DNA of 64,000 bases from IMG/VR virus record IMGVR_UViG_3300020202_000064, positions 30,000 to 93,999 of that record, one strand, 5' to 3'. This DNA is from a virus. The notes below the pieces were generated by a model. The model was not told the origin of the DNA. It made no database searches and saw only the letters and a list, made by a program, of their open reading frames with translations. The number at the start of each line of letters is the position of its first letter. The stretch's first letter is position 1. The position numbers were made by a program, and so were the translations under genes. Of this stretch, positions 10,444 to 23,291 are shown in pieces.

Positions 10444-10446
10444 AAA

Positions 10447-10560
10447 CTAAGCCCTTTTTTTTGGATGCTACCATTACATTAGAGCGGCTTCCAACTCCGC
10501 TTGCCGACTCGAACGGCTCTCCTTGTTTCGTAGACAATTTTTGTTTGCTGTATGGGCTAA
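10447..10560 (-). ncRNA. Y-RNA-like (CAGC-motif) RNA with permuted tRNA module
   Basis: TTAGCCC-ATA-CAGCAA...GCCG-TTCGAGT-CGGC (T arm), AGCGG-loop-CCGCT (closed acceptor), ATGT-AATGGTA-GCAT (D arm)...GGGCTTAG. Confidence 0.8.
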
Positions 10561-10566
10561 TGGAAG

Positions 10567-10644
10567 TGGAGTTGACGGAGGCACTCGAAACCTCATGATA
10601 TCCTCTTTACAAGAGAGGTGCTTTTCCTCTTAAGCCACGTCAAC
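10567..10644 (-). tRNA. tRNA-Thr(TGT)
   Basis: CCTCT-CTTGTAA-AGAGG; GTTGACG/CGTCAAC-TCCA. Confidence 0.9.
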
Positions 10645-10703
10645 GTTAAATCGATACAAAATTTCGTGTAATCTAATTCGAGCCTAAATAAAGGATTCGA
10701 ATT

Positions 10704-11102
10704 ATGAATATTAAAGAACAATGTCTGAAACTAAAATCAGAAAATCCAAAAATGTATTATAAAGAAATCGCAAAGATTGTCGGGTGTCAACCAAGCACTG
10801 TTTGCTATCATTTGAATGAAGACACGAGAAAAAATTACCGACATCGCCAATCTAAAAACAGAAGAATTAATAATAATGCATTAAAAAGTGTTAACGGCGG
10901 TAAATGTAAACTTTGTGGTTACTGCAAATCTTTGTCCGCTCTGCATTTTCATCATTTAGACCCAGATACGAAAACCGATGAAGTTTCAAGAATATTGAGA
11001 ACGCGCGGAAAATTAGCAGCCACGAACGAAGCAAAAAAATGTATTCTTATTTGTGCTAATTGTCATCATGAAATCCACGACGGATTAATAAAATTAGAAT
11101 GA
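10704..11102 (+). CDS. HNH homing endonuclease with HTH
   Basis: GGKCKLCGYCKSLSALHFHHLDP...KCILICANCHHEIH. Confidence 0.88.
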   Translation: MNIKEQCLKLKSENPKMYYKEIAKIVGCQPSTVCYHLNEDTRKNYRHRQSKNRRINNNALKSVNGGKCKLCGYCKSLSALHFHHLDPDTKTDEVSRILRTRGKLAATNEAKKCILICANCHHEIHDGLIKLE

Positions 11103-11104
11103 AA

Positions 11105-11179
11105 TGGAGTCCCGTATCGAACTTGAATCGATTTATTCGCGTTACGAATGCGAGGCATCACCATCAATGCTTACAGGAC
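11105..11179 (-). tRNA. tRNA-Thr(CGT)
   Basis: TCGCA-TTCGTAA-CGCGA; GTCCTGT/ACGGGAC-TCCA. Confidence 0.85.
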
Positions 11180-11337
11180 GAAAAATTATTTTCTTTGGCG
11201 ATTTCTAAATATGATTTTTCGCCGGGTTTTTGCTGTATAAAATAATCCAACACCCTTGCTATTTCAAGGGGGTCTGTTCCTCGCTCAACCGAAGTAATTG
11301 TTAACTCCAATAGTTCCTTTTTCTTTTGATTATTCAT
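11164..11337 (-). CDS. small hypothetical protein
   Basis: MNNQKKKELLEL... fills the spacer between two tRNAs. Confidence 0.45.
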   Translation of the reverse strand: MNNQKKKELLELTITSVERGTDPLEIARVLDYFIQQKPGEKSYLEIAKENNFSSCKH

Positions 11338-11340
11338 AGA

Positions 11341-11417
11341 TGGCGCGACCAGCCCGATTCGAACGGGCACTAAAGCTACTTAGAAGGAAGCTTGACTTTC
11401 CAATTGCCGATGGTCGC
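11341..11417 (-). tRNA. tRNA-Arg(TCT)
   Basis: GCTTC-CTTCTAA-GTAGC; GCGACCA/TGGTCGC-GCCA. Confidence 0.88.
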
Positions 11418-11422
11418 AAAAA

Positions 11423-11653
11423 TTATTTATCGATTCTACGGATGGATTGATGTTCCTTAACGCGCATTTTGTCAAGTTCTTTCTGACTATAAATTTTGCG
11501 CACTGCTACACCAACATATTTCTTTGGCAGAAAACCAATTGCACAATGTAAACCGATGCGAAATGGAATCTCCGCAATCAACCTTTCGCTTTCTCGCTTG
11601 GCGGCGCTTTCCTCAAATTCGCCAATATTATCATCTACCATCCAATTTTTCAT
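11423..11653 (-). CDS. hypothetical protein
   Basis: 76 aa ORF exactly filling a tRNA spacer. Confidence 0.55.
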   Translation of the reverse strand: MKNWMVDDNIGEFEESAAKRESERLIAEIPFRIGLHCAIGFLPKKYVGVAVRKIYSQKELDKMRVKEHQSIRRIDK

Positions 11654-11654
11654 A

Positions 11655-11749
11655 TGGTGGTTCCTGTCAGAATCGAACTGACGCTCGGCGGCAATCTACC
11701 GCATACAGGTTATAAATCTGTCGGTGCTCTCCAATTACACTAAGGAACC
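11655..11749 (-). tRNA. tRNA-Ile(TAT) with long variable arm
   Basis: ACAGA-TTTATAA-CCTGT then GCGGTAGATTGCCGC V-arm; GGTTCCT/AGGAACC-ACCA. Confidence 0.88.
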
Positions 11750-11870
11750 AAGCGAACCGTTTGCTTGAAGGCACTTTTACCCATCTACCCACAAACTTAA
11801 TTTTGCACCACGGTTCGACAGACAACTCACCCTCACATAACAGGTATTCTTCTGTGAGGGGACTAGCAAA

Positions 11871-11948
11871 TGGCATCCACGGTGAGCCTTGAACTCACAT
11901 ATGACCAACTTGAGAGGTTGGTGACTTTGCCAATTTGTCAACGTGGAC
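11871..11948 (-). tRNA. tRNA-Glu(CTC)
   Basis: CCAAC-CTCTCAA-GTTGG. Confidence 0.88.
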
Positions 11949-11960
11949 AAAAGGTCCAAC

Positions 11961-12224
11961 TTAATGAACTGATTTATCAGAAGGATTTTCTATACTTCTT
12001 TGAATTACTTTTGCACTTAGTAAGGTTAGCAAATAACTACCTAACGTTGCACCTACACTCGCGGGTATTTCCACAAGCGCGCCCGTCTTAATACAGGCGA
12101 ATAACCAGCCGCCGCAGATAGTTGTAAGAATCAGCATCGTACCAAGGAACACAACCAAACGTGTCGTGGAAGGGGTGTCAGGGGCTTCTTCCAAAGCCTT
12201 GCCTAACCAAGTAAAAAAGTTCAT
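11961..12224 (-). CDS. small two-TM membrane protein (holin-like)
   Basis: PSTTRL followed by two hydrophobic helices; GTGTAA motif upstream. Confidence 0.6.
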   Translation of the reverse strand: MNFFTWLGKALEEAPDTPSTTRLVVFLGTMLILTTICGGWLFACIKTGALVEIPASVGATLGSYLLTLLSAKVIQRSIENPSDKSVH

Positions 12225-12259
12225 AATCTGAATTACACGTAAGAATCAATCATTTAGCA

Positions 12260-12342
12260 TGGTGGTCAAGGTGGGACTCGAACCCACAAGCCGAAGCATA
12301 TGCACCTCAAGCATACGTGTATGCCAATTTCACCACATGACC
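12260..12342 (-). tRNA. tRNA-Leu(GAG)
   Basis: TATGC-TTGAGGT-GCATA, V-arm GCTTCGGC. Confidence 0.92.
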
Positions 12343-12381
12343 ATAACGGATTTTAACGTAGAAAGCCGCAAACGCACAATA

Positions 12382-12660
12382 TCATGTCCAATCCCAAGCG
12401 TTATCTCTTGGTTCTCTGGGTAAATTAACTTCTTCCTCGTCTATATTTCCCGCGCGTAGGTTTTTTAGTTCCTGATTGCGCTCGGCGCGACGGGCGCGCT
12501 CTCTCATTTGTTTGTGCCATTTTGGCGATTTATCCCAACGCTTTTTATCGCGAGTAAATTTCCATTCTGGCGTATTGTCAACAAGCGGTTCTCCCCACAT
12601 CATTATAGTGGGGCGCTTGCCACGTAGTTTCCTATCGTCAAAACGGCGTGTTCTGCTCAT
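12382..12660 (-). CDS. basic hypothetical protein
   Basis: MSRTRRFDDRK...AWDWT; likely start 12660. Confidence 0.6.
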   Translation of the reverse strand: MSRTRRFDDRKLRGKRPTIMMWGEPLVDNTPEWKFTRDKKRWDKSPKWHKQMRERARRAERNQELKNLRAGNIDEEEVNLPREPRDNAWDWT

Positions 12661-12700
12661 AGGAAGAAGCCTTTCGGCTGAGGTTTGTATTGGTAGAAGA

Positions 12701-12780
12701 TGGGGTATACGACGGGGCTTAAACCCGCAGGGACCAAGCTTCACAGGCTTGTGCGTCTAATCAATTTCGCCACGTATACC
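12701..12780 (-). tRNA. tRNA-His(GTG)
   Basis: CAAGC-CTGTGAA-GCTTG; G-1:C73 extended acceptor. Confidence 0.88.
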
Positions 12781-12784
12781 ATAA

Positions 12785-12912
12785 CTAAGTTCATTTTTAT
12801 ATTGTCGCCTAAACCAGACTAGGCTACTTCCGCATATTGTAAATGGTGCGGAAGGTGGGATTTGAACGCCACGTATAACAATTTCCATGAAATTGGATGC
12901 TGTTAGAACTTA
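12785..12912 (-). ncRNA. Y-RNA-like (CAGC-motif) RNA with permuted tRNA module and internal ACCA
   Basis: TAAGTTC-TAA-CAGCAT...GTGGCGTTCAAATCCCAC (T arm), CTTCCGC-ACCA-TTTACAATAT-GCGGAAG (acceptor), TA-GCCT-AGTCTGGTTT-AGGC (D arm)...GAACTTAG. Confidence 0.85.
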
Positions 12913-12992
12913 AATTGGTTTTTGATTTTATTATAAATCGTCATTTTTCTTCGTGTAATCTTTTATGGCAGGACCATAAGGATTCGAAAAAG

Positions 12993-13718
12993 ATGATTAA
13001 ACTATTTACTGATAAAGAATTTAATTCGGCTAAATCGCGGGATTTACTACCTCTTAAATGCGAAAAATGTGGAAAAACTTTCCACAAGGCAAAACACAGA
13101 ATACAGGATGCCTTATCGACCAAGACGAAGCTTTTCTGGAAATTTTGTTCTAAACGATGCAGTGATGAACACTTCGAAACATCCATAGAAGTCGAATGTT
13201 GCCAGTGCAAACGGAAAACATTCAAAACCCCGTCAGAGATAAAAAAAGTAAGACGCCCATTTTGTTCACAATCTTGTGCAGCTTTATATAACAACACGCA
13301 TAAAACACACGGAACATCTCGTTCAAAACTAGAAAAATGGTTGGAATCTAAATTAATAACTGAATATCCCGAATTAGAATTTCATTTCTCAAGAAAAGAT
13401 GCTATCAACGGTGAACTAGATATTTATATTCCATCATTAAAATTGGCATTTGAGTTAAACGGGATTTTCCATTATGAACCAATTTATGGTAAGGAACAAT
13501 TAATCAAAATGCAGAACAACGATAAACGAAAGTTCCAAGCGTGTTTAGAAAATGGAATAGAACTATGTATTATAGATACAACGTCTCAAAAGTATTTTAA
13601 AGAAAATACCTCTTTAAAATTTCTTAATATCATCCGAGATATAATCGAAAGAAAAATGGCAGGACATGTAGGTGAGGAACCCACTTCTTCGCGTTTGGAG
13701 TGCGAGGCACATACCTAA
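12993..13718 (+). CDS. homing endonuclease: Zn-ribbon repeats plus Vsr/DUF559-like PD-(D/E)XK domain
   Basis: CEKCGK...FCSKRC, CCQC...FCSQSC; ELDIYIPSLKLAFELNGIFHY; C-terminus overlaps the antisense of tRNA-Trp. Confidence 0.8.
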   Translation: MIKLFTDKEFNSAKSRDLLPLKCEKCGKTFHKAKHRIQDALSTKTKLFWKFCSKRCSDEHFETSIEVECCQCKRKTFKTPSEIKKVRRPFCSQSCAALYNNTHKTHGTSRSKLEKWLESKLITEYPELEFHFSRKDAINGELDIYIPSLKLAFELNGIFHYEPIYGKEQLIKMQNNDKRKFQACLENGIELCIIDTTSQKYFKENTSLKFLNIIRDIIERKMAGHVGEEPTSSRLECEAHT

Positions 13719-13732
13719 TATACCAATGTCCT
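13657..13732 (-). tRNA. tRNA-Trp(CCA), atypical T-loop
   Basis: TCGCA-CTCCAAA-CGCGA; AGGACAT/ATGTCCT-GCCA; T-loop TTCCTCA. Confidence 0.8.
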
Positions 13733-13738
13733 ATAAAG

Positions 13739-13900
13739 TCATTTCTGACCATCTAAATATTTCTTGAACGCATCTTGATTTTTAATCGCCGCCCGAAGTT
13801 CTGGCGTCGTATCATCAATATACAACGGACATTGTACTGGTTCGTGATAACAGCCTTCGGCCAATATTTCTTTTATTTCTTCAATAGTCGTCTGATTCAT
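13739..13900 (-). CDS. small hypothetical protein
   Basis: MNQTTIEEIKEIL... in a tRNA spacer. Confidence 0.5.
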   Translation of the reverse strand: MNQTTIEEIKEILAEGCYHEPVQCPLYIDDTTPELRAAIKNQDAFKKYLDGQK

Positions 13901-13903
13901 AAT

Positions 13904-13980
13904 TGGTGCAAATGGAAGAAATCGAATCCTCAGTATAACTACGTTCGAAGCGTAGGTGGCTCTCCTGTGCCAGCATTTGC
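13904..13980 (-). tRNA. tRNA-Arg(TCG), atypical D arm
   Basis: CTACG-CTTCGAA-CGTAG; GCAAATG/CATTTGC-ACCA. Confidence 0.78.
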
Positions 13981-14011
13981 GTGTTTTAATTTTAGCTACG
14001 TATGTATTAAA

Positions 14012-14088
14012 TGGTGGGGGCCGAGCGAATTGAACGCTCACATCAAGATTTTCAATCTAGCATGCTCACCAGTTTACATCAAACCCCC
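14012..14088 (-). tRNA. tRNA-Phe(GAA)
   Basis: CTAGA-TTGAAAA-TCTTG. Confidence 0.85.
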
Positions 14089-14237
14089 AAAGGCTAGCAG
14101 CCACCCCACAACTTCGGGTATGTGACACCTGAAAGTCGGTTTCGCGCTATGCGCTAATCAAACACCGAACCTTTCCTTTATTGTAGTCCTTGTGGACTAT
14201 CCTTTCCTTTTCCTTACCTACGGTATTTAACCATAGG

Positions 14238-14423
14238 TTATGCGCGGTTACCAGCCGCGACTTTATATCCCGGTAACCAGCCGGGAAATTTGTGAAATTT
14301 ATACATAAACGGCGGATTTAATTCGTCATTCATTCTGTTACAGTGTTCTCTGAGTAATCTTTTTAAATATACAGACTTAATCCATTGGTCTATAAACTCG
14401 CGCGCTTTATCTTGTTTATTCAT
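14238..14423 (-). CDS. hypothetical protein
   Basis: 61 aa ORF in a spacer. Confidence 0.5.
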   Translation of the reverse strand: MNKQDKAREFIDQWIKSVYLKRLLREHCNRMNDELNPPFMYKFHKFPGWLPGYKVAAGNRA

Positions 14424-14541
14424 GAATATACTGGTGTGTCTTTTCGTTGGTCTCCGACTAAAATCAATATTGCTTTGACCGCCTCAGTGAAGATATTCTA
14501 TTCATCGGGTTTTCTGCGACCCACTCTCCTTTTATATTCAT

Positions 14542-14618
14542 TGGTAGTCGCAATGGGATTCGAACCCATACTGAAAAGTTTTTAAGACTTTTGCTTCTGC
14601 CGGTTGAGCGATGCGACC
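14542..14618 (-). tRNA. tRNA-Leu(TAA), short variable arm
   Basis: AAAGT-CTTAAAA-ACTTT. Confidence 0.88.
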
Positions 14619-14623
14619 ATAGC

Positions 14624-15187
14624 TTATTTCAGAGGGAATGCAACTGTATTTGTTGGGGCGCTATTGCCAGAAGAATTATAAGCGAACACACGATACCAAT
14701 ATGTACCAACGCCTATATTCGTATCAATAAATGTATTTATGTTAGCTGAAGTCGTACCTATAACAACAAAATTTTCCCCATCATTACTACGCTCTATTTT
14801 AAAACCAGTTTCGTTGCTGGAATTATCACTCCAAGTTAATGTTACTGACGATGGGACGCTTCTAACACTCACACTTTCTAATTTTAAATATGTATATAAA
14901 CTGTCAATTTTTCGCAATACTGTTTGTAAATCTGTATTTGTATTATTTTGATTTTCCTTCAAAGCCGCTAACTCTTGCAATGCCAAATCTCTCTCTTGTT
15001 GAGCTTGCGCTACAAGCTTTTCTTGATACACAGCATATAAATGCCATGCTATAATCTGAGAATTTTTTGCATCCCACGCGGATTGTGCTGGATAAGCGGG
15101 GCGAGGAACGGGGGTAATAGATGTAACTTGAGCTAATAAAACACTCGCCAAAGCAACAACGAAGAAACTAATAAGAATTTTTTTCAT
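14624..15187 (-). CDS. secreted fibronectin type III domain protein
   Basis: Signal peptide MKKILISFF...; LTWSDNSSNETGFKIERS...YWYRVFAYNSSGNS. Confidence 0.85.
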   Translation of the reverse strand: MKKILISFFVVALASVLLAQVTSITPVPRPAYPAQSAWDAKNSQIIAWHLYAVYQEKLVAQAQQERDLALQELAALKENQNNTNTDLQTVLRKIDSLYTYLKLESVSVRSVPSSVTLTWSDNSSNETGFKIERSNDGENFVVIGTTSANINTFIDTNIGVGTYWYRVFAYNSSGNSAPTNTVAFPLK

Positions 15188-15196
15188 AAAACAACT

Positions 15197-15272
15197 TGGT
15201 GCGATATAGGAGATTTGAACTCCTACCCCATGCTTGGAAGGCGCGTGTGCTGCCATTAAACACTAATATCGC
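15197..15272 (-). tRNA. tRNA-Gly(TCC)
   Basis: Loop CTTCCAA; GCGATAT/ATATCGC-ACCA. Confidence 0.88.
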
Positions 15273-15282
15273 AAAATGGGTA

Positions 15283-15438
15283 TTAGCCCAAGATAAATCC
15301 GAGTACGAAAGCAACTACTGTCGAAATTAACGTCACTTTCATGCTAACCTGCTTGGCAAGAAACTGCTGAGTTTCCTCTTTGGCTTCATGCTTTAAGCGC
15401 GCTTTTGCCTCTTCAACGTGTTCTTTTAAATCGCTCAT
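15283..15438 (-). CDS. small tail-anchored membrane protein (51 aa)
   Basis: Manual translation: MSDLKEHVEEAKARLKHEAKEETQQFLAKQVSMKVTLISTVVAFVLGFILG*; GTGTAA motif upstream. Confidence 0.55.
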   Translation of the reverse strand: MSDLKEHVEEAKARLKHEAKEETQQFLAKQVSMKVTLISTVVAFVLGFILG

Positions 15439-15586
15439 AGTATTGTTATGTTCAATCTAAATTACACTTTAAACTAGGGGCTTTACTCTAGCCCGACGGT
15501 ACAACAATCCACTGTTGCCATTGCGCCGCTTTTACATTAGCGGCAGAAAGCCCGCACATTTAAGCTGGCGGGGACTAACTATAGTC

Positions 15587-15662
15587 TGGTGGGCATGGCA
15601 GGAATCGAACCCGCAATCTTCACCGTGTAAAAGTGCCGCGTTAACCGTTACGCTACACGCCC
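15587..15662 (-). tRNA. tRNA-Val(TAC)
   Basis: Loop TTTACAC; GGGCGTG/CATGCCC-ACCA. Confidence 0.92.
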
Positions 15663-15664
15663 AT

Positions 15665-16029
15665 TTTCTATTCCAGTTTAGCCGCGATTCTGGTTTATCT
15701 CTACATTTCTCTAATCGGCTTTCGCCAATTCCCACCGTCAATAGATGGGTGCATCAACCCGGCCTCATCGATAAGCACTAATCTCAGCCTGTTTGACTTG
15801 CTACTACCATGAGGTATTAACGAATACGTGATAGGCTATGGTTTGTAAGCCATGCCGAGTATTCTCCCTATCGGTTGCTTTGTAGTCGCGAACTTCCTCT
15901 GACTTATGGAATGCGGGGTTCCTCTCTTTCGAGTTTGGCATACCGCATCTTACGTCCCTTTACGCACCATTCTCAGGCCGTGGCCTGATTAAAGGTTTCA
16001 CCTTTCGTCAGCGTAGAGTCGAATAGAAA
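15665..16029 (-). ncRNA. rnpB: RNase P RNA (compact, reduced S-domain)
   Basis: P1 TTTCTATTC/GAATAGAAA; CR-I GAGGAAGTTCGCGAC; GTAGCAAG; CR-IV TAGAGAAATG; CR-V ACCAGAATCGCGGCTA; P4 pairing (T)CGCGA/TCGCGG. Confidence 0.85.
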
Positions 16030-16081
16030 TTTTGCACCCCGGACGTAACAATCTATAGTCATTGGAATCCGGCCCGTCTCC

Positions 16082-16567
16082 CTATAGTGTTTGTGCGGCC
16101 ACCCTCGACCGTAAAGTAAATTCATAATGAAGCATCGTTGAACGGGACAATAACCCCGGCGACACTTCCCAAGCTTTCGTATTATTTAGTAAAGAAATTC
16201 CTGCGTGTTCAAACGCCGCATAAATCAATTCAGAGCAAAACCACTTGTCTTTCGAACCGCCCGATTCAGATTCACGAGAAAGGAAACGAAGTACCATGGT
16301 AATGTCGTACTTCTTACCCACTTGAGCATAAAGGAACTGGCTGATTTTACGGAATTGTTCCGACGTAACTTCAGTCGAATACATATCAATATATTCGTCC
16401 TTCTTAAATTTGTACTTCTGGAATTTACGAACACCGTAAAAACGGGTGGCCTCAATTACGTCTTTTTCCAATGATATACTTACATGTGAATATTTACTAC
16501 GAGTTTGCCAACGAATAATTTTATCAAAAATAGAGTTAGCTGAATGTAATCCAATGTAGATTTTCAT
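16082..16567 (-). CDS. permuted papain-like NlpC/P60 amidase (YiiX/YaeF-like)
   Basis: SKYSHV...GKKYD...KWFCSELI...VSPG. Confidence 0.85.
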   Translation of the reverse strand: MKIYIGLHSANSIFDKIIRWQTRSKYSHVSISLEKDVIEATRFYGVRKFQKYKFKKDEYIDMYSTEVTSEQFRKISQFLYAQVGKKYDITMVLRFLSRESESGGSKDKWFCSELIYAAFEHAGISLLNNTKAWEVSPGLLSRSTMLHYEFTLRSRVAAQTL

Positions 16568-16587
16568 ACATTAAGTTACACTAAATT

Positions 16588-16665
16588 TGGCGCGGGAGGT
16601 GGGCTTCGAACCCACAACCTTGAAATTTAGAGTTTCCTGCTCTGAACCAGTTGAGCTACTCCCGC
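16588..16665 (-). tRNA. amber suppressor tRNA (anticodon CTA)
   Basis: GCGGGAG-TA-GCTCAACTGGTTCAGAGC-A-GGAAA-CTCTAAA-TTTCA-AGGTT-GTGGG-TTCGAAG-CCCAC-CTCCCGC-GCCA; canonical cloverleaf. Confidence 0.9.
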
Positions 16666-16724
16666 AATAAGCCCGAATAAATCGGGCACTAAATTACTAT
16701 TTCTACGATGTATCCTATTTCAAA

Positions 16725-17003
16725 TCAATCACCCCCTTTCTTGCCGCTCGCGGCTCGAATATGGGCAGTGCCATCCGAAATATCTATATCAACATTTTTA
16801 AATCTCAAACTTCCCTTAGTATGTTGATTATCAGGGGTTTCTTTTGTGGAAAAGGGAACTTCGCAATCCACATGGTTAACGTAGTACGTTATACCTTTTG
16901 TCTTAATTACCCACGGGGCAATTCGACTATCGAACAAGTGTGCCTTATTAAAATGGAACACTGCTTCTTTACAATTCTGAACCTAATGTTCTTCCTATTT
17001 CAT
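16725..17003 (-). CDS. hypothetical phage protein, probably starting at 17003 with two in-frame TAG codons
   Basis: ATG AAA TAG GAA GAA CAT TAG GTT CAG AAT TGT AAA GAA GCA GTG TTC CAT TTT AAT AAG... is in frame with track ORF 16725..16961; GTGTAA motif 11 nt upstream of this ATG. Confidence 0.6.
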
Positions 17004-17082
17004 GTCAGTATATATTACACTTATTTTTGTTGTTCGTGCAAACTAAAATCTTCAATTTTACATCAAACCGAAGGTTTGAAAA

Positions 17083-17158
17083 TGGAGGCAGCGCCGTGAA
17101 TTTAACAACGGTTCTTCCAACTTTGCGGTCGGACGGATTAGCGTCTTCCTCCGCTGCC
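17083..17158 (-). tRNA. tRNA-Cys(GCA), atypical
   Basis: GGCAGCG/CGCTGCC-TCCA (U73); TCCGA-CCGCAAAG-TTGGA irregular loop; degenerate T arm. Confidence 0.65.
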
Positions 17159-17308
17159 ATATTTATAACCTAGCAGCCCCACTGCAACCCGTATAGCATA
17201 ACAATTTAGGTTAGAACTGTTCGTATGCCGATTACTTCATGATTAGGAGCAACCCTATTATTTTTCATACTACACCCGATGGTGCCACCGATTTTTGTCA
17301 TTATAAAT

Positions 17309-17384
17309 TGGTGTGCCGTGCGAGACTCGAACTCGCGATATCCAACTTGGCAAGCTGGCGCAATAGCCACTATGCGAACGACAC
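17309..17384 (-). tRNA. tRNA-Gly(GCC)
   Basis: CCAGC-TTGCCAA-GTTGG. Confidence 0.88.
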
Positions 17385-17433
17385 AGAAGAACGCCTCTTA
17401 ATCGGAGACGAGAATCGAAATTCTTTATTTTTA

Positions 17434-17508
17434 TGGTAGCACACGGCGGCGTTTGAATCCGCTGCTCCAACTTATGAGGATGGCGAGTTACCTATACTCT
17501 ACGGTGCA
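17434..17508 (-). tRNA. tRNA-Met(CAT), initiator-like
   Basis: Loop CTCATAA; mismatched 1:72; GAGT/ACTC D stem. Confidence 0.75.
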
Positions 17509-17549
17509 ATAAGGGGAATCGATATTGTTAGGTATCTATTCCCATCGTT

Positions 17550-17915
17550 TCAACCCTGCATCTTTTTCAACTTATCTTCTAACTGCTTTAATTGATATTC
17601 CAACTGATTCACTTTACCAGCATATTGCATGTTCTGGAATTGAACCAGAGCAATTTGTTTTTCAAGCTGTAATTTCTCGTTCAATAATTCATTATATTTA
17701 TCAGATACATCAGGATTTGCTTTTAACTTTGAAATCTCCAACTCCAATGAAGTAATTTTTTCTTTAAGAACATCTGATGCAGAAAGTTTTAAGAAAAAAC
17801 TATTAATAAATTCCAACTTGGTCTTTAAAATCGAAATTTCAGTATCAAGAGATTCAATTGTCGCTTTGAGTTGAAGGTTATTCGCTAATAAGGCGGTGCG
17901 TGTGACATAGGTCAT
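17550..17915 (-). CDS. coiled-coil hypothetical protein
   Basis: Heptad-rich 121 aa; GTGTAA motif upstream. Confidence 0.65.
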   Translation of the reverse strand: MTYVTRTALLANNLQLKATIESLDTEISILKTKLEFINSFFLKLSASDVLKEKITSLELEISKLKANPDVSDKYNELLNEKLQLEKQIALVQFQNMQYAGKVNQLEYQLKQLEDKLKKMQG

Positions 17916-17938
17916 ATATATAGTTACACCAAAAATAA

Positions 17939-18016
17939 TGGTGGCTACATAGGGATTCGAACCCTAAAAATTCACGTTCTAAGCGCGACACGTCTAGCCA
18001 GTTGCGTCATGTAGCC
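17939..18016 (-). tRNA. tRNA-Leu(TAG), short variable arm
   Basis: TCGCG-CTTAGAA-CGTGA. Confidence 0.88.
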
Positions 18017-18195
18017 TAATAGCACGCACAAGTTTTACGTTGTGCGGCTTTGTTGTCTTACTTATCGCGAGGACGGTATTCGTTGTCATAAATGACAATA
18101 AGACCGAGCATCACGAGGACAGAGAAGAAGGCAATCATCTTGCTTTCCTTTCTTGTTTTAGGTGCCGTCGTCCCGTAGGATAGGCGGCAGATAAA

Positions 18196-18272
18196 TGGCT
18201 GTCTTGTTTGAATTTGAATCAAAATATTTCGGGTCAGAGCCGAATGTAATAACCAAGTTATACGACAAGACA
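18196..18272 (-). tRNA. tRNA-Gln(CTG)
   Basis: TTCGG-CTCTGAC-CCGAA; U1:A72, G73. Confidence 0.88.
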
Positions 18273-18277
18273 ATAAC

Positions 18278-18402
18278 GATGCCCAAATCCATCAACGCTG
18301 GATAAACGCGAATTACTTTCATTCCACCTTTCGGCGCGGGCGTAATCGACCATTTTTACTTCACGTAGTAGTTGTTTTTATTTGATTTGCTGTGTGGGCG
18401 TC
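18278..18402 (-). ncRNA. Y-RNA-like (CAGC-motif) RNA, variant stem
   Basis: GACGCCC-ACA-CAGCAA...GGGCATC. Confidence 0.6.
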
Positions 18403-18440
18403 TACGAATCTACGATTCTATTATAAATCGAAGATTTAAT

Positions 18441-18531
18441 TGGCAGTCCTCCCCGGACTCGAACCGGGACATCTATTTCTAGATATGACAGCTTCAAAGG
18501 CTGTTGTGCTAACCAATTACACTAGAGGACA
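18441..18531 (-). tRNA. tRNA-Gln(TTG) with long variable arm
   Basis: ACAGC-CTTTGAA-GCTGT followed by an ATCTA-GAAA-TAGAT V-arm. Confidence 0.85.
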
Positions 18532-18579
18532 ATAAAATCGGTCATGATTTGCGTGTAATTAACATGAGTAAGTTAATTT

Positions 18580-19032
18580 ATGAGTAAATCATCAGAGGCC
18601 GTTAAAAAATGGAGAAAAGCAACTAAACAACGAATAATTGATGCTATGGGCAAACAGTGTCAATGTTGTGGGTATAATAGATGTAACGAGTGTTTAGATT
18701 TACATCATTTGGACCCAAACGAAAAGGAACTAAGTTTTGGAGCGATAAGGGCGAACCCAATCGCTTGGTCGAAAATTGTAGAAGAGTTAAGAAAATGTAT
18801 ATTAGTGTGTAGAAATTGCCATGGAGAAATACATAATAACAATCTTCCAATTCCAAACAACTATTGTAAATTTGACGAATCCTATTCAGAATACAAAATT
18901 GTATCCGAAGAACTTGCGTCTAAGTGTCCAAAATGCGGGGACCAAAAATTAACAATACATAAATTCTGTTCCCAGAATTGTGCAAAACGTGGACGTAAAT
19001 TGGCTATACAGGTTGGAGCCGCCCCAACATAA
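18580..19032 (+). CDS. HNH homing endonuclease
   Basis: CQCCGYNRCNECLDLHHLDP...KCILVCRNCHGEIH; C-terminus overlaps the antisense of tRNA-Asn. Confidence 0.88.
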   Translation: MSKSSEAVKKWRKATKQRIIDAMGKQCQCCGYNRCNECLDLHHLDPNEKELSFGAIRANPIAWSKIVEELRKCILVCRNCHGEIHNNNLPIPNNYCKFDESYSEYKIVSEELASKCPKCGDQKLTIHKFCSQNCAKRGRKLAIQVGAAPT

Positions 19033-19094
19033 GATTTTATTCTTCACTCGCTTAACAGGCGAAGCCAGCTAACTTAGCTATCTGGGTCTGCATA
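19001..19094 (-). tRNA. tRNA-Asn(GTT), atypical (long V-arm, odd T-loop)
   Basis: TTCGC-CTGTTAA-GCGAG; AAGA-ATAAAA-TCTT V-arm; GTTGG-GGCGGCT-CCAAC. Confidence 0.7.
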
Positions 19095-19099
19095 ATAGA

Positions 19100-19173
19100 T
19101 GGCTCCGGAAATTCGGGTCGAACGAATGATTTTTGGGTAACAGCCAAACGTGATGCCACTTCACTATACCGGA
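19100..19173 (-). tRNA. tRNA-Asn(GTT)
   Basis: TTTGG-CTGTTAC-CCAAA; TCCGG/CCGGA-GCCA. Confidence 0.85.
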
Positions 19174-19179
19174 ATAAAA

Positions 19180-19258
19180 CTAAGTTCCTTGTGCCTTTTA
19201 TTAACCGGTGGCAAAGCCCGTCTCCTGATTATGTCATAGATATTGCTGTATGAACTTA
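19180..19258 (-). ncRNA. Y-RNA-like (CAGC-motif) RNA
   Basis: TAAGTTC-ATA-CAGCAA...GAACTTAG. Confidence 0.78.
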
Positions 19259-19262
19259 AAAG

Positions 19263-19400
19263 TGGAACGTATGGGATTCGAACCCATATCGACGAACTTT
19301 ACGCCCGTCTCGTAAGATTATCTTATATATTCTTTTACCGGTGCGAATATATCACTTCATCAAACTACTTGTGGAGCTTTGACCATTAAGCTAACGTCCC
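19263..19400 (-). ncRNA. tRNA-like RNA with Ala identity elements and the anticodon arm replaced by an ~85 nt domain
   Basis: GGGACGT/ACGTTCC-A (G3:U70, A73); canonical D arm GCTT-AATGGTCA-AAGC; T arm ATGGG-TTCGAAT-CCCAT; no anticodon stem-loop. Confidence 0.65.
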
Positions 19401-19436
19401 ATAAATCGTAGATTTACATAAACCTACGGTTTAATA

Positions 19437-19583
19437 CTAAGCGCAACGCATTTACAGCGCGCGACTGAATGGCTTTTGTATTAGGCACCATCATTTCCTC
19501 GTGCAACCCGCCTCACTTCATCTTTCGATGGTGATTGGATGTTTGCACATCATCGATAAGTTTATTATCGCTGTATGCGCTTA
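19437..19583 (-). ncRNA. Y-RNA-like (CAGC-motif) RNA
   Basis: TAAGCGC-ATA-CAGCGA...GCGCTTAG. Confidence 0.78.
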
Positions 19584-19587
19584 AAAC

Positions 19588-19729
19588 CTAAGTATAACGA
19601 AAAGTTTAGGCTCTTTTCGCGTTCCTAAAAAGCATGGAGAAGCTTTTCAATCTAACAGTTATGGAATGTCAGCCGGTGCCGCCCCGAAGGGTAGCGTCTT
19701 GTTAAGATAAGGATTGCTGTATATACTTA
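19588..19729 (-). ncRNA. Y-RNA-like (CAGC-motif) RNA
   Basis: TAAGTAT-ATA-CAGCAA...ATACTTAG. Confidence 0.78.
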
Positions 19730-19821
19730 TGGCGGTGAGGGCGAGAATCGAACTCGCGGGGCAACTTTCGTCACCCTTTTGCTTTCCAAGCAAATGCATT
19801 AGGCCGCTCTGCCACCTCACC
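19730..19821 (-). tRNA. tRNA-Ser(GGA)
   Basis: TTTGC-TTGGAAA-GCAAA, long V-arm. Confidence 0.93.
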
Positions 19822-19825
19822 AAGA

Positions 19826-20026
19826 TTACGCAATTTCTGCGAATCGCTTTTTAAAATAATTACTGGTCTCGTCCGGGGTGTGCCGCAAGAACAGTTGCTC
19901 GTCAATCTCATCAAACGCTCTGAAATCACCATTAGATGCGGCAATCAACGCGTCGCTAAGTTCTGGCGAACATTCGAACCTAAAGCCGAATGAATCCCAG
20001 ATTTCTTTAAATCTTTCGTATGTCAT
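19826..20026 (-). CDS. hypothetical protein
   Basis: 66 aa ORF filling a tRNA spacer. Confidence 0.55.
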   Translation of the reverse strand: MTYERFKEIWDSFGFRFECSPELSDALIAASNGDFRAFDEIDEQLFLRHTPDETSNYFKKRFAEIA

Positions 20027-20029
20027 AAT

Positions 20030-20117
20030 TGGTGGTCCCGGTGGGATTCGAACCCACAGTGAGCTTACGCTTTCGGCTTAAGAGGCCGGACTAATCAACC
20101 GTTCTAGGCACGGAACC
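20030..20117 (-). tRNA. tRNA-Lys(CTT) with extended variable arm
   Basis: CGGC-CTCTTAA-GCCG then an AGC-GTAA-GCT V-arm. Confidence 0.8.
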
Positions 20118-20121
20118 AAAT

Positions 20122-20471
20122 TGGTGGAGATGGAGGGCTTCGATTCCCTCGTGTCCGATACTTCGTATTTCCATTCTTGTTACATGCTTAGAATCACTTG
20201 ATAATATCGTTTTCGGTTTGATTCTACCAAACGACATTTGACGGTTATATAATCAGCTTCTATCAACCAGTCAATTTTAAAGCTGATTCCCGATGATGAC
20301 GAGTGGCCCAATTTATCGGCGGTCAATTGGAACTCGGTTAGCCGCAATTAAGCAGCGTAAGCATAAACTTCTGTTTTCTTAGCGTTTATTTTGTGATACG
20401 TTTTACGACGTGGCATCATTGTCGGCATGGAATGTAAACCTACGTATTGGATAGAATCCAAATACATCCCC
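20122..20471 (-). ncRNA. ssrA: tmRNA
   Basis: GGGGATG...CATCTCC-ACCA (G3:U70); resume context ATAAAC-GCT; tag AKKTEVYAYAA*. Confidence 0.92.
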
Positions 20472-20482
20472 AAAAGAAATAT

Positions 20483-20560
20483 TGGTGCGCCCCGAGGGAG
20501 TTGAACCCTCACGATGGTCCGCTTAAAAGGCGGCTGCTCGTCCACTGTAGCTTGAGGCGC
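20483..20560 (-). tRNA. tRNA-Lys(TTT)
   Basis: CCGC-CTTTTAA-GCGG. Confidence 0.85.
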
Positions 20561-20569
20561 ATATTAAAA

Positions 20570-20644
20570 TGGAGTCCCTAGCGGCTTACGAGACCGCGTA
20601 TGAATCTTTTGCAGAGATTTGCATTTCCTCTTTGCTATAGGGAC
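20570..20644 (-). tRNA. tRNA-Cys(GCA)
   Basis: AATCT-CTGCAAA-AGATT; U73. Confidence 0.8.
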
Positions 20645-20652
20645 ATAAAAAT

Positions 20653-20755
20653 TGGCGGAAGAGGCAAGATTCGAACTCGCACGCGCTATGGTTTACATAT
20701 CGCCCTCGCATTTCAAGTGCGCTGCCGCTAGGCCATATCCTCGGCTTACTCTTCC
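20653..20755 (-). tRNA. tRNA-Ser(TGA)
   Basis: CGCA-CTTGAAA-TGCG; enlarged D loop and V-arm. Confidence 0.85.
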
Positions 20756-20757
20756 AT

Positions 20758-20815
20758 CTAAGCGGGCGCAATTTTCCCTTTCGGGATGGCGATTTATATT
20801 TTGCTGTATCCGCTT
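20758..20815 (-). ncRNA. Y-RNA-like (CAGC-motif) RNA, short
   Basis: AAGCGG-ATA-CAGCAA...CCC-GAAA-GGG...CCGCTTAG. Confidence 0.75.
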
Positions 20816-20873
20816 GTTGCTTTAATTGCGCGAAATCTTAAAACCTTCGGTTTTATTATAAATCGAAGATTTA

Positions 20874-20950
20874 TGGTGGCCGAGGGTGGGTTTGAACCAC
20901 CAACCGTTCGTCTATCAAACGAATGCACTAGCCAATTGTGCTACACGGCC
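20874..20950 (-). tRNA. tRNA-Ile(GAT)
   Basis: TTCGT-TTGATAG-ACGAA. Confidence 0.88.
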
Positions 20951-20955
20951 ATTAT

Positions 20956-21048
20956 CTAAGCTCTATTATTGTGCGGGCATCGAATCCCGCTCAATTCGTG
21001 TTTTTGAAACGAATTTTTATCCATTTAAGGTTTTGCTGTGAGAGCTTA
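20956..21048 (-). ncRNA. Y-RNA-like (CAGC-motif) RNA with a T-arm-like hairpin
   Basis: TAAGCTC-TCA-CAGCAA...GCGGG-ATTCGATG-CCCGC...GAGCTTAG. Confidence 0.78.
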
Positions 21049-21088
21049 TTGTGGAGCTTACTCCACCGTTCCAGCAAAGCTGGAAATA

Positions 21089-21145
21089 CTAAGCGCATTT
21101 TGTTTTTCATTAATCATTGAATTTTTAATTCGCTGTTAGCGCTTA
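21089..21145 (-). ncRNA. Y-RNA-like (CAGC-motif) RNA, minimal
   Basis: TAAGCGC-TAA-CAGCGA...A-rich...GCGCTTAG. Confidence 0.75.
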
Positions 21146-21328
21146 TAAGGAAACGAAAACTTGTTATGTTTTTGGCTTCTGATTCGAAGCATATTTGACG
21201 AAACGTTTATAATTTTTTAAATCGCGGCTAGCGTCTGTGCGCCGGGAATATGGACCGTAATCTAAATCCCCCCATTGATTTTTAAACCAAAACTTTCCAT
21301 CTCGCTTGAAAATTTTCATACTCTAAAA

Positions 21329-21403
21329 TGGCGGGACCAACGAGTGCTACCCTCGCTTCTGTATCGTGACAGGATACCGCTTTTGTTGATAAGCTATGGC
21401 CCC
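21329..21403 (-). tRNA. tRNA-Asp(GTC)
   Basis: GTATC-CTGTCAC-GATAC; atypical D and T loops. Confidence 0.8.
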
Positions 21404-21510
21404 AAAATTACAAAGGTCACTCCATCCCTTTGAATGGCAGTTTATAAACGTGGAAACGTTTAAAGGTTTTATTTTTCGCCGGTTCTGCTTTACCCTGAAC
21501 CTAGAGAAGT

Positions 21511-21589
21511 TGGTAGCGCGTGTGGGGCTCGAACCCACGCATGACCGATTTGAAAGACCGGTGACTTGAACCTGCTTGTCAAACGCGCC
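21511..21589 (-). tRNA. tRNA-Glu(TTC)
   Basis: CCGGT-CTTTCAA-ATCGG. Confidence 0.9.
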
Positions 21590-21725
21590 GTAAAGATATT
21601 CTTTTGTATCCATCTATTCGGATTAACAACAACCCCAATGTTCGATACAAATAAACTACAATAACAGTTGTTTTTGATATATTATTATAGAAGAACTGAG
21701 GTGGAAATAAGTGTAATTACACTAT

Positions 21726-22301
21726 ATGTCCACTAAAATATTATCTGAATTTTCTCGATGTGACTCCTTTGGAACGCAGCGTAAATACGTTTCTTACCAT
21801 TGTACTCGATGCGGTGTCGAACATTCCAAACCAAAACGTAACTTTTGGTTAGATAGACCCAACTTCTGTTCCGTTAACTGTGCAAGAGAACATCAAAAAA
21901 TTTTGCATTCATTTGAAGCTGAGTGCGCATGGTGCGCAAATAAATTCCACAAAAAGATATCAACAAAGGGAAATAGTCGTTCCGGTTTATATTTTTGTTC
22001 CAGACTATGCAAAGACAAGGCTCAAAGCTTGGAAGGTGGTATAAAGGAAATACAGCCAAATCATTACGGAGAAATTAAAAAGAATTATCGCGAAACTGCA
22101 TTTAAAAATCTGCCAGCACGCTGTAATCGATGCGACTTTGCTGCTTACCCAGAGATACTAGAGGTTCATCACAAAGACCATAATCACCATAATAATACCG
22201 TAGATAATTTGGAAATTTTATGTCCAAACTGCCACGAAATTCATCACTTCGAAACGAAATCGGGTAAATATGCCAAAAGTGGTGGACTGGAAGGGGATTG
22301 A
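21726..22301 (+). CDS. HNH homing endonuclease with Zn-ribbon repeats
   Basis: FCSVNC, FCSRLC repeats; CNRC...LEVHHKD...NLEILCPNCHEIHH; ends inside the antisense of tRNA-Ala. Confidence 0.88.
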   Translation: MSTKILSEFSRCDSFGTQRKYVSYHCTRCGVEHSKPKRNFWLDRPNFCSVNCAREHQKILHSFEAECAWCANKFHKKISTKGNSRSGLYFCSRLCKDKAQSLEGGIKEIQPNHYGEIKKNYRETAFKNLPARCNRCDFAAYPEILEVHHKDHNHHNNTVDNLEILCPNCHEIHHFETKSGKYAKSGGLEGD

Positions 22302-22355
22302 ACCCTCCACACGAACATTGCAAATGTCTGTCGCCTCCGAGGAACATGCCAGCCC
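22280..22355 (-). tRNA. tRNA-Ala(TGC)
   Basis: Loop TTTGCAA; G3:U70. Confidence 0.85.
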
Positions 22356-22358
22356 AAC

Positions 22359-22435
22359 TGGTGTTTCCACTCGGAATTGAACCAAGATGATACAGTTTAG
22401 GAAACTGTTGCCTTATCCAGTTAGGCGATGGAAAC
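22359..22435 (-). tRNA. tRNA-Arg(CCT)
   Basis: ACAGT-TTCCTAA-ACTGT. Confidence 0.9.
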
Positions 22436-22436
22436 G

Positions 22437-22670
22437 TTAACTCAAAATTACACCCAAATCATTAACTTCGTTTTCAAACTCGTCGAACGTCGGTTCAATA
22501 TCTTCCATTGAGGCATCGATTCTTTTCTGCTTCATGCGACGATACTGAGTGTGACAGACTGCCAATCTTTGTTTATCATTACCATATTCCTTTTGCATCA
22601 AATCCGAATCCATACAACGATTGATGAATTCAGTCTGTTTTTCATTGGACTTTGGTGTAGGCAGTGGCAT
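22437..22670 (-). CDS. small phage hypothetical protein
   Basis: MPLPTPKSNEKQTEFINRCM...QRLAVC; GTGTAA motif upstream. Confidence 0.7.
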   Translation of the reverse strand: MPLPTPKSNEKQTEFINRCMDSDLMQKEYGNDKQRLAVCHTQYRRMKQKRIDASMEDIEPTFDEFENEVNDLGVILS

Positions 22671-22700
22671 ACACTATATTACACTAAATGTCACCTAAAA

Positions 22701-22787
22701 TGGTGGTCCCGGTGGGATTTGAACCCACAGTGCCCGAAGGCGGCAGATTTACAGTCTGCTACGTCTACCAATTGACGCGTCGTGACC
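22701..22787 (-). tRNA. tRNA-Tyr(GTA)
   Basis: GCAGA-CTGTAAA-TCTGC, V-arm GCCTTCGGGC. Confidence 0.88.
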
Positions 22788-22945
22788 ATCATACGAACTA
22801 CGGTACATATGATTTATCATCACCCCAATGCCTTGGGCCGATTTTTTGCGAGGTTGTACATTCCTCCGTTCGTATTCTGTATTAGGGATGCCTCCCTTTT
22901 AACATATGAGAGATAGGTGAGTTAATTACACTCACTTATCTTTGA

Positions 22946-23039
22946 CTAAGTATATTTTTATCACCCCATAAATTTGAAATGGCGGGGTGTGAAGGAATTG
23001 AACCTTCTGTTTCCAGAAAAGTCATGCTGTTAATACTTA
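22946..23039 (-). ncRNA. Y-RNA-like (CAGC-motif) RNA with permuted T arm/acceptor and internal GCCA
   Basis: TAAGTAT-TAA-CAGCAT...GAAGG-TTCAATT-CCTTC-ACACCCC-GCCA-TTTCAAATTTAT-GGGGTG...ATACTTAG. Confidence 0.82.
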
Positions 23040-23040
23040 A

Positions 23041-23117
23041 TGGTGCGGTCAGAGGGACTCGAACCCCCACTAAAAGATTCGTAATCTTTCGTGCTAATTC
23101 CATTACACTATGTCCGC
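23041..23117 (-). tRNA. tRNA-Arg(ACG)
   Basis: AAAGA-TTACGAA-TCTTT. Confidence 0.92.
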
Positions 23118-23167
23118 ATATCGACGGGCCTACCCGCCGTGGTTTAACCAATTTTTAGGAAAAATAA

Positions 23168-23290: not shown

Positions 23291-23291
23291 A

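What the first reader, a model, noticed from the sequence alone, without database searches (positions are those of the whole stretch)
16588..17020. Gene with two N-terminal in-frame TAG codons directly upstream of an amber suppressor tRNA
After a GTGTAA motif, ATG 17003 reads M-K-TAG-E-E-H-TAG-V-Q-N-C-K-E-A-V-F-H-F-N-K..., continuous with ORF 16725-16961. The next gene is a canonical CUA-anticodon tRNA. The long genes in this window have no internal TAG, so this is local rather than genome-wide recoding. Inference: a suppressor-dependent expression switch or sensor, or a relic or starting point of TAG reassignment.
Basis: partly seen in the sequence, partly recalled or inferred. Interest (0 to 1): 0.8.

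Follow-up and report, generated by a model that had tools for sequence, protein, structure and literature searches.

The report
Stop-codon-gated phage gene with own tRNA
A small conserved phage gene starts with UAG stop codons and sits next to the phage's own UAG-reading tRNA; about 85 related phage sequences keep the same pairing, so the protein is probably made only when that tRNA overrides the stop, which gives 'orphan' suppressor tRNAs of normal-code phages a concrete target.

Summary

**In the window (minus strand):**
- ATG 17003 reads M-K-TAG-E-E-H-TAG and then an 85-codon frame that ends at TGA 16725.
- A canonical tRNA(CUA) lies 59 nt downstream, at 16588-16665.

**In relatives:**
- In 84 of 86 loci from uncultured phages, and in the cultured Rhizobium phage RHph_I1_18, the same gene opens with ATG, 0-5 sense codons, then an in-frame stop.
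- That stop is TAG in 62 of 62 distinct sequences, never TAA or TGA. The next base is A or G in 61 of 62.
- The residues right after the TAG are conserved as protein while their codons vary synonymously. In 46 of 77 loci there is no start codon between the TAG and the conserved motif.
- A CUA tRNA is co-oriented and nearby in at least 69 of the 80 loci screened. It is often the only tRNA in 20 kb.

**Genetic code:** these phages otherwise use the standard code.

**Exceptions and covariation:**
- In the four relatives that lack their own TAG, the gene follows a stop-gated PTH2-like hydrolase gene.
- That leader stop is TAG in Phosso, which has CUA tRNAs. It is TGA in Atu_ph07, which has a UCA tRNA.

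**Function and novelty:** the protein is an all-beta domain with no known fold or family, so its function is unknown. This scan has already found the same module on other DNA. I found no published description.

The parts
16725..17003 (-). Gated ORF of 92 codons with UAG at codons 3 and 7. Residues 8-92 form the conserved all-beta 'FHFNK' domain. The stop is TGA at 16727-16725.
   Evidence: Searches give the sequence. Homologues appear. The fold has pLDDT 88.
16995..16997 (-). First in-frame TAG (codon 3). ATG-NNN-TAG is the commonest layout in the family.
   Evidence: a leader of 2 codons in 35 of 62 distinct N-termini.
16983..16985 (-). Second in-frame TAG (codon 7), 4 codons before the conserved Cys. 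It is followed by G.
   Evidence: RHph_I1_18 has its TAG at the same distance from the Cys.
16959..16961 (-). GTG that standard gene callers use as the start. It cuts off the conserved Cys-Lys-Glu.
   Evidence: the Atlas record starts here. One search shows Cys conserved in 55 of 57 sequences upstream of it.
16588..16665 (-). tRNA with anticodon CUA (amber suppressor). It has a canonical cloverleaf, an encoded CCA end and G73.
   Evidence: alignment with 43 related CUA tRNAs.
16671..16687 (-). A 6-bp GC-rich hairpin between the ORF stop and the tRNA. Its role was not tested; it could be a processing or pause site.
   Evidence: Read. The terminator scan did not call it.
17015..17020 (-). GTGTAA(T) motif 17 nt before the ATG. 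The same motif lies 14 nt before the ATG of several neighbouring small genes. It may be a promoter or start signal.

Best explanation
This is a two-part module carried by many phages: a tRNA that reads UAG, and a small gene whose first few codons contain UAG. Ribosomes start at ATG 17003. Without the phage tRNA, release factor 1 ends translation after two residues. With charged tRNA(CUA), both UAGs are read as an amino acid and the 85-residue all-beta protein is made. Output therefore follows how well UAG suppression is working in the infected cell, and with two UAGs it follows roughly the square of that efficiency.

Shown here: the anatomy, its conservation, the linkage to the tRNA, and the standard code of the rest of the genome.

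Inferred: that the adjacent tRNA is the decoder, that the gate is regulatory, and what the protein does. In some relatives the same module gates a PTH2-like peptidyl-tRNA hydrolase instead, with this gene placed directly behind it. My best guess is therefore that the protein acts on translation: handling the consequences of readthrough, or tuning suppression.
For: (1) The leader stop is TAG in 62 of 62 distinct N-termini, and 84 of 86 loci have it.
(2) The base after TAG is A in 55, G in 6 and C in 1. From my own knowledge, a 3' purine favours amber suppression in E. coli.
(3) F, H, F, N, K, H and Cys just after the TAG are invariant or nearly so, while their codons vary (TTT/TTC, CAC/CAT, TGT/TGC, four Val codons). 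In 46 of 77 loci there is no in-frame ATG, GTG or TTG between the TAG and the motif.
(4) A good SD precedes the upstream ATG in 55 of 62.
(5) ARAGORN finds a CUA tRNA on the same strand in 55 of 80 loci. It is often 130-700 nt upstream or directly downstream, and often the only tRNA in 20 kb. A covariance model and whole-record searches add at least 14 more.
(6) The code is standard elsewhere.
(7) Natural covariation: Phosso has CUA tRNAs and a TAG in its PTH2-like leader. Atu_ph07 has a UCA tRNA, no CUA tRNA found by my pattern search (the paper lists the UCA tRNA as its only suppressor), and a TGA in the same leader. In both, the PTH2 domain starts upstream of the annotated ATG.
L048 and L081 lack the gate on this gene and have it on the PTH2-like gene just upstream. 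Where this gene is gated, PTH2-like paralogues are not.
Against: There is no direct evidence of translation: no proteomics, no ribosome profiling, and reads could not be fetched. The amino acid inserted is unknown, because the tRNA has no clear paralogue among the array's tRNAs. ATG 17003 has no SD, but neither do most genes of this phage. The window has two TAGs where most relatives have one. Six of 80 loci, mostly fragments, showed no CUA tRNA. The protein's function is unknown: no Pfam, PHROG or PDB match.
Confidence: 0.8

Rival explanations
1. Ordinary gene that starts at GTG 16961. The upstream ATG and TAGs are untranslated spacer, and the tRNA next door is a coincidence.
For: ORF callers pick GTG 16961. 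Valine at -1 is GTG in 22 of 57 relatives.
Against: Cys-Lys-Glu/Asp upstream of that Val is conserved with synonymous variation. In 46 of 77 loci there is no start codon there. The nearest upstream in-frame stop is always TAG and never TAA or TGA, although TAG is only about 22% of stop triplets in this genome. The tRNA linkage recurs.
Confidence: 0.03
2. Leader mini-ORF. ATG-AAA-TAG is a two-codon upstream ORF. The main frame is translated by reinitiation or non-canonical initiation after termination, without suppression. The tRNA serves another purpose.
For: Two-codon minigenes are known in phages (lambda bar, from my own knowledge). The codon after TAG is often ATT.
Against: The codon after TAG is also AAA, ACT, AAC, GTT and GAA, and in the window a second TAG follows. 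This does not explain why the stop must be TAG, why a CUA tRNA is linked, or why Atu_ph07 pairs TGA with UCA.
Confidence: 0.06
3. Partial or incipient genome-wide TAG reassignment, of the code-15 type. This gene is simply the first or last recoded gene.
For: A phage-encoded CUA tRNA is present. TAG is a rare stop here, at 5 of 101 ORFs. Some protein records show Q at the TAG position, probably because gene callers used TAG=Q: P0001 also shows Q at a TAG that is the terminal stop of the 99%-identical locus L004.
Against: No other gene in 94 kb needs TAG readthrough. In 80 related loci, coding density is the same under both codes, and TAG still ends about 10% of ORFs. The same single gene is gated across very divergent phages, which is not what drift towards recoding predicts.
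Confidence: 0.03
4. The TAG is decoded by the tRNA, but the dependency has no regulatory role. It would be a frozen accident or an 'addiction' that keeps the tRNA gene from being lost.
For: The tRNA and the gene are co-transcribed neighbours, so timing control seems weak. No function is known for either.
Against: Eight of nine single-base changes of TAG give a sense codon. Synonymous sites around it are near saturation, yet TAG is kept in 62 of 62. The gate moves between two different genes of the module rather than disappearing. Both points argue for selection on the gate itself.
Confidence: 0.08

Closest known systems
Stop-codon-recoded phages with their own suppressor tRNAs (code 15; crAss-like, Lak and others; Borges et al., bioRxiv 10.1101/2021.08.26.457843)
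   Same: A phage-encoded tRNA(CUA) reads in-frame TAG in phage genes. The authors propose that this regulates when proteins are made.
   Different: There, 26-71% of genes carry in-frame stops, mostly late and lysis genes. Here one small gene is gated, always within its first few codons, in phages that otherwise use the standard code.
bldA tRNA-Leu(UAA) and TTA-containing regulators in Streptomyces (own knowledge)
   Same: A single dedicated tRNA acts as the key for translating a few genes that carry its rare codon.
   Different: bldA reads a rare sense codon. Here the codon is a stop, so the tRNA competes with release factor 1, and the key and the lock are adjacent on a virus.
prfB (RF2) autoregulation through an early in-frame UGA, and ArfA control by tmRNA (own knowledge)
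   Same: An early in-frame stop, or a non-stop message, lets a gene sense the activity of the termination or rescue machinery.
   Different: In prfB the product is itself the factor that reads the stop, and bypass is by +1 frameshift. Here bypass is by a cognate suppressor tRNA, and the product's function is unknown.
Orphan suppressor tRNAs of standard-code jumbo phages (XacN1, PMC5852040; Atu_ph07, PMC6102473; phiKp24, PMC8386662)
   Same: Standard-code phages that carry CUA, UCA or UUA suppressor tRNAs.
   Different: Those papers report no identified target. The XacN1 paper says so outright. Here a conserved target with the stop at the N-terminus is identified, including a TGA-gated PTH2-like gene in Atu_ph07.
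Pyrrolysine (pylT with mtmB) and selenocysteine (selC with fdhF) decoding
   Same: A dedicated tRNA reads an in-frame stop in specific genes. ARAGORN labels the tRNA 'Pyl' only because of its CUA anticodon.
   Different: The tRNA is an ordinary cloverleaf scoring 62.6 bits against the general tRNA model. The position of the codon, in a variable leader outside the conserved domain, argues against a special catalytic residue.

Membership tests
Stop-codon-recoded (code 15) phages | A large share of genes carry in-frame TAG, and coding density rises when TAG is read as sense | tested here: not met
   only this ORF in 94 kb; density is unchanged in 80 related loci, and TAG ends 164 of 1704 ORFs.
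Stop-codon-recoded (code 15) phages | Phage-encoded tRNA with anticodon CUA | tested here: met
Amber-gated gene with own suppressor tRNA (module seen repeatedly in this scan; not found in the literature) | In-frame TAG within the first ~10 codons, after a plausible start, followed by a conserved frame with no start of its own | tested here: met
Amber-gated gene with own suppressor tRNA (module seen repeatedly in this scan; not found in the literature) | Co-oriented tRNA(CUA) in the same locus, conserved across relatives | tested here: met
Amber-gated gene with own suppressor tRNA (module seen repeatedly in this scan; not found in the literature) | The TAG is actually read by that tRNA in infected cells | not testable with these tools
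   Only indirect support: the TAG/CUA versus TGA/UCA covariation between Phosso and Atu_ph07.
PTH2 peptidyl-tRNA hydrolase (PF01981) | Sequence match to the PTH2 profile | tested here: not met
   no Pfam hit for the window protein. The PTH2-like genes are separate neighbours in Phosso, Atu_ph07, L048 and L081. None was found in the own contig.
Pyrrolysine system | Atypical pylT structure and pylS/pylBCD genes | tested here: inconclusive
   The tRNA fits the general tRNA model well. The pyl genes were not searched for.
LytTR-like or other known beta folds | Structural match clearly above background | tested here: inconclusive
   Best Z is 3.4 (3bs1_A, rmsd 3.0 over 51 residues). Foldseek gave nothing at E <= 0.001.

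The most novel reading that the evidence does not exclude
The module is a self-contained sensor of stop-codon suppression. The leader UAG(s) measure the balance between the phage's charged suppressor tRNA and host release factor 1. The gated products, this all-beta protein or a PTH2-like hydrolase in other phages, then act back on translation: clearing products of readthrough, or tuning the suppressor or RF1. It would be a natural feedback circuit built on an orthogonal tRNA, and it would explain why standard-code phages carry suppressor tRNAs.
Probability: 0.3. Interest if true: 0.9.

Novelty: new variant of a known kind. Interest (0 to 1): 0.8.

Why it matters
Suppressor tRNAs in phages that use the normal code have been a loose end. 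The XacN1 paper states that no target gene could be identified, and the Atu_ph07 paper names none.

A conserved gene whose opening codons are the matching stop gives these tRNAs a specific, testable target. It also shows a natural one-codon translational gate, the design that synthetic biologists build with amber suppression.

There are practical consequences for annotation. Gene callers truncate or miss these genes: the gene is unannotated in RHph_I1_18, and many database entries start at the internal Met.

Finally, it defines an uncharacterised all-beta protein family, about 176 clusters at 50% identity, that is linked to translation control in phages.

Tried and rejected
- **Family and fold searches:** Pfam, PHROGs, ESM Atlas, Foldseek against PDB and VIA-align wide gave no family or fold for the N-terminal domain. 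The C-terminal domain of the long forms is a common ferredoxin-like ACT/RRM arrangement at Z about 7, which is not informative.
- **Fusions:** searches for fusions to known domains found none that are credible.
- **Neighbourhood:** clustering of neighbouring genes found no conserved partner gene apart from the tRNA and, in a subset, a PTH2-like gene.
- **tRNA identity:** similarity to the other tRNAs of the arrays gave no consistent nearest type.
- **Other gated genes:** a scan of the own contig found none convincing.
- **Terminator and promoter scan:** nothing above background.
- **Cultured phages and genomes:** the near-identity megablast of the locus (window 16000-18000) against the phages collection found nothing. 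tblastn of the protein found only four records. Bacterial and archaeal genomes gave only six MAG contigs.
- **Literature:** three searches found no description of the module.

Full report
**What is there**

All genes in the window run on the minus strand. A 16-kb stretch (6992-23365) holds 31 tRNA genes, so this is a large phage; the record is a 94-kb viral contig, about 46% complete.

On the minus strand, ATG 17003 is followed by AAA, TAG, GAA GAA CAT, TAG and then an open frame of 85 codons ending at TGA 16725. A tRNA with anticodon CUA begins 59 nt further on, at 16665-16588. It is a canonical cloverleaf with loop CUCUAAA and an encoded CCA end, and it scores 62.6 bits against Rfam's tRNA model, whose threshold is 29. 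The description is exact.

**Is it local?**

Yes. In the whole contig, TAG ends 5 of 101 long ORFs and no long gene needs TAG readthrough. No other ORF has a start-proximal TAG with a plausible start.

**Relatives**

tblastn found the protein in Rhizobium phage RHph_I1_18. There it is unannotated and reads SD-ATG AGT GAG TTC ATG TAG, with the TAG four codons before the conserved Cys, exactly as for the window's second TAG. It is followed 12 nt after its stop by a tRNA(CUA).

Three scans of IMG/VR gave 20, 80 (of 405 relatives) and 9 loci.
- In 76 of 78 and 8 of 8 loci where the motif could be placed, the gene opens with ATG, 0-5 sense codons and an in-frame stop.
- Among 62 distinct N-termini the stop is TAG 62 times. 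The following base is A in 55, G in 6 and C in 1. An SD-like motif precedes the ATG in 55.
- As a control in the same loci, the pattern 'SD, ATG, up to 8 codons, stop, at least 50 open codons' occurs 55 times at this gene. Elsewhere it occurs 10 (TAG), 17 (TGA) and 12 (TAA) times.

**The stretch after the TAG is translated**

Cys (55 of 57), Lys/Arg, Asp/Glu, Val and the invariant F-H-F-N-K-x-H follow the TAG within 7-12 codons. Their codons vary freely: TTT 32 and TTC 25; CAC 39 and CAT 18; TGT 45 and TGC 10; Val uses all four codons. In 46 of 77 loci there is no in-frame ATG, GTG or TTG between the TAG and this motif.

Translation must therefore arrive from upstream, through the TAG. In the window, GTG 16961, the start that gene callers use, would remove the conserved Cys-Lys-Glu.

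ATG 17003 lacks an SD, but so do nearly all genes of this phage. The GTGTAAT motif that precedes it also lies 14 nt before the ATG of several neighbouring small genes.

**Linkage to the tRNA**

- ARAGORN finds a co-oriented CUA tRNA in 55 of 80 loci. It is typically 130-1300 nt upstream or directly downstream of the gene, and in about 35 loci it is the only tRNA in 20 kb.
- ARAGORN misses some. Rfam and a covariance model built from 44 of these tRNAs find CUA-loop tRNAs in 11 more loci, and tRNAs with an ambiguous UCU/CUA loop directly upstream of the gene in 5 more.
- Pattern searches of whole records find CUA tRNAs 11-50 kb away in three further cases.
- Six loci, mostly fragments, remain without one.
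- The tRNAs are very diverse. Most share G1-C2-G3 and a 3' strand ending C70-G71-C72 (G1, C72 and the CC of the CCA end are invariant). A73 is usual, G73 occurs in the window and a few others, and the CCA end is encoded.
- Their amino-acid identity could not be inferred from paralogy.

**Standard code in the relatives**

Across the 80 loci, coding density is the same with TAG as stop or as sense. ORF ends are TAA 1004, TGA 536 and TAG 164.

**Exceptions that fit the rule**

Two IMG/VR loci lack the gate on this gene (L048, L081). In both, the CUA tRNA is followed by a PTH2-like gene that opens ATG AAA TAG or ATG TTG TAG, and the present gene comes right behind it. In L048 its ATG is 1 nt after the upstream stop.

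The jumbo phages Phosso and Atu_ph07 have the same order: PTH2-like gene, a small ORF, then this domain fused to a helical N-terminus, with 4-nt overlaps between the genes.
- In Phosso the PTH2-like frame extends upstream of the annotated start to SD-ATG AAG TAT TAG. The phage has two CUA tRNAs, one of them 5 kb upstream.
- In Atu_ph07 the equivalent leader is ATG ATT GGC GAA CAC TTT TGA. My pattern search found no CUA tRNA there but did find a UCA tRNA. The published description lists that UCA tRNA as the phage's only suppressor and names no target.
- In both phages the Pfam PTH2 match begins about 10 residues before the annotated ATG, and no start codon lies between the stop and that point.

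This change of stop codon together with the anticodon is the strongest indirect evidence that the phage's own suppressor reads these leader stops. Conversely, where the present gene carries the TAG, nearby PTH2-like paralogues start normally.

**The protein**

AlphaFold gives a confident all-beta domain (pLDDT 88). It has no Foldseek match in the PDB, and its best VIA-align score is Z 3.4. There is no Pfam or PHROG family.

Many relatives add a ferredoxin-like (ACT/RRM-type, Z about 7) domain and an acidic tail. Others add an N-terminal helical domain.

The family comprises 1317 clusters at 90% identity and about 176 at 50%. It is essentially confined to phage contigs. Many database entries start at the internal Met or at the Val before FHFNK, which means they are truncated by the TAG.

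**Mechanism**

Shown: a conserved start, a conserved TAG, conserved coding sequence behind it, a linked CUA tRNA and a standard-code background.

Inferred, in three steps:
1. The tRNA decodes the TAG.
2. The gate is under selection. Eight of nine point changes of TAG give a sense codon, yet none is seen although neighbouring synonymous sites are near saturation.
3. Expression therefore reports how well suppression competes with RF1.

Two TAGs in the window would make the response steeper. The alternation with a gated PTH2-like gene suggests that the products deal with translation, but this is a guess.

**Known or new?**

The nearest published concept is stop-codon recoding as a regulator in alternatively coded phages. 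Those phages recode many late genes.

The XacN1 paper states that no target could be identified for its suppressor tRNAs. The Atu_ph07 and phiKp24 papers leave the targets open or call for further study. Three literature searches found no description of a single N-terminally gated gene paired with its own suppressor tRNA.

This scan has noted the same module before on other DNA. That includes this same protein family (e1-5402531) and PTH2-like versions (e1-3754321, e1-5525513). Those notes gave me the PTH2 lead, which I then tested here.

**Limits**

The own contig is incomplete. Counts of loci include related sequences, so they are not independent events, although 62 distinct leaders and 43 distinct tRNAs were seen.

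Noticed in passing
L003:1441-1461 (Atu_ph07, MF403008) and L002:1399-1410 (Phosso, PV764938): The PTH2-like genes of both jumbo phages are annotated too short. Their frames extend upstream to an ATG followed by an in-frame stop: TGA in Atu_ph07, which encodes a UCA tRNA, and TAG in Phosso, which encodes two CUA tRNAs.
   Followed up: yes
window 9422, 12238, 16581, 17020, 17929, 22684, 24047 (minus strand); 21711 (plus strand): A motif (T)A-GTGTAAT lies 14-17 nt (23 nt at 24047) before the ATG of small genes scattered through the tRNA array. It may be a phage promoter or a signal for short-leader or leaderless starts.
   Followed up: partly
window, whole: Most genes have no Shine-Dalgarno sequence; their upstream regions are A/T-rich. 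The related IMG/VR loci mostly have strong AAGGAG. This hints at a host that does not rely on SD.
   Followed up: partly
window 10366-10443, 14542-14618, 17939-18016; 11655-11749, 18441-18531, 20030-20117: tRNAs with Leu anticodons (CAA, UAA, UAG) are only 77-78 nt, too short for the usual long variable arm. tRNAs Ile(UAU), Gln(UUG) and Lys(CUU) are 88-95 nt, perhaps because of insertions or introns.
   Followed up: no
window 17040-17180 (minus strand): Between tRNA-Gly and ATG 17003 there is a long GGCAGCG...CGCTGCC stem that overlaps a 51-codon ORF ending 1 nt before the ATG. It looks like a structured RNA. Another first-stage note calls such units Y-RNA-like.
   Followed up: no
window 25110-26645 (minus strand): A 511-aa protein with DUF2828 and DUF7788 (TROVE/Ro60-like, with a VWA part) lies next to the tRNA array.
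   Followed up: no
L038:87-161, L039:9872-9946, L040:9613-9687, L060:3244-3320, L061:9822-9896: tRNAs directly upstream of the gated gene have the loop sequence GGATTCTAA(A/C)CC, which can be read as anticodon UCU (Arg) or CUA. They are clearly homologous to unambiguous CUA tRNAs of other loci.
   Followed up: partly
window 16082-16567 (minus strand): The gene after the suppressor tRNA encodes a permuted papain-like amidase (Peptidase_C92, E 5.5e-09).
   Followed up: no
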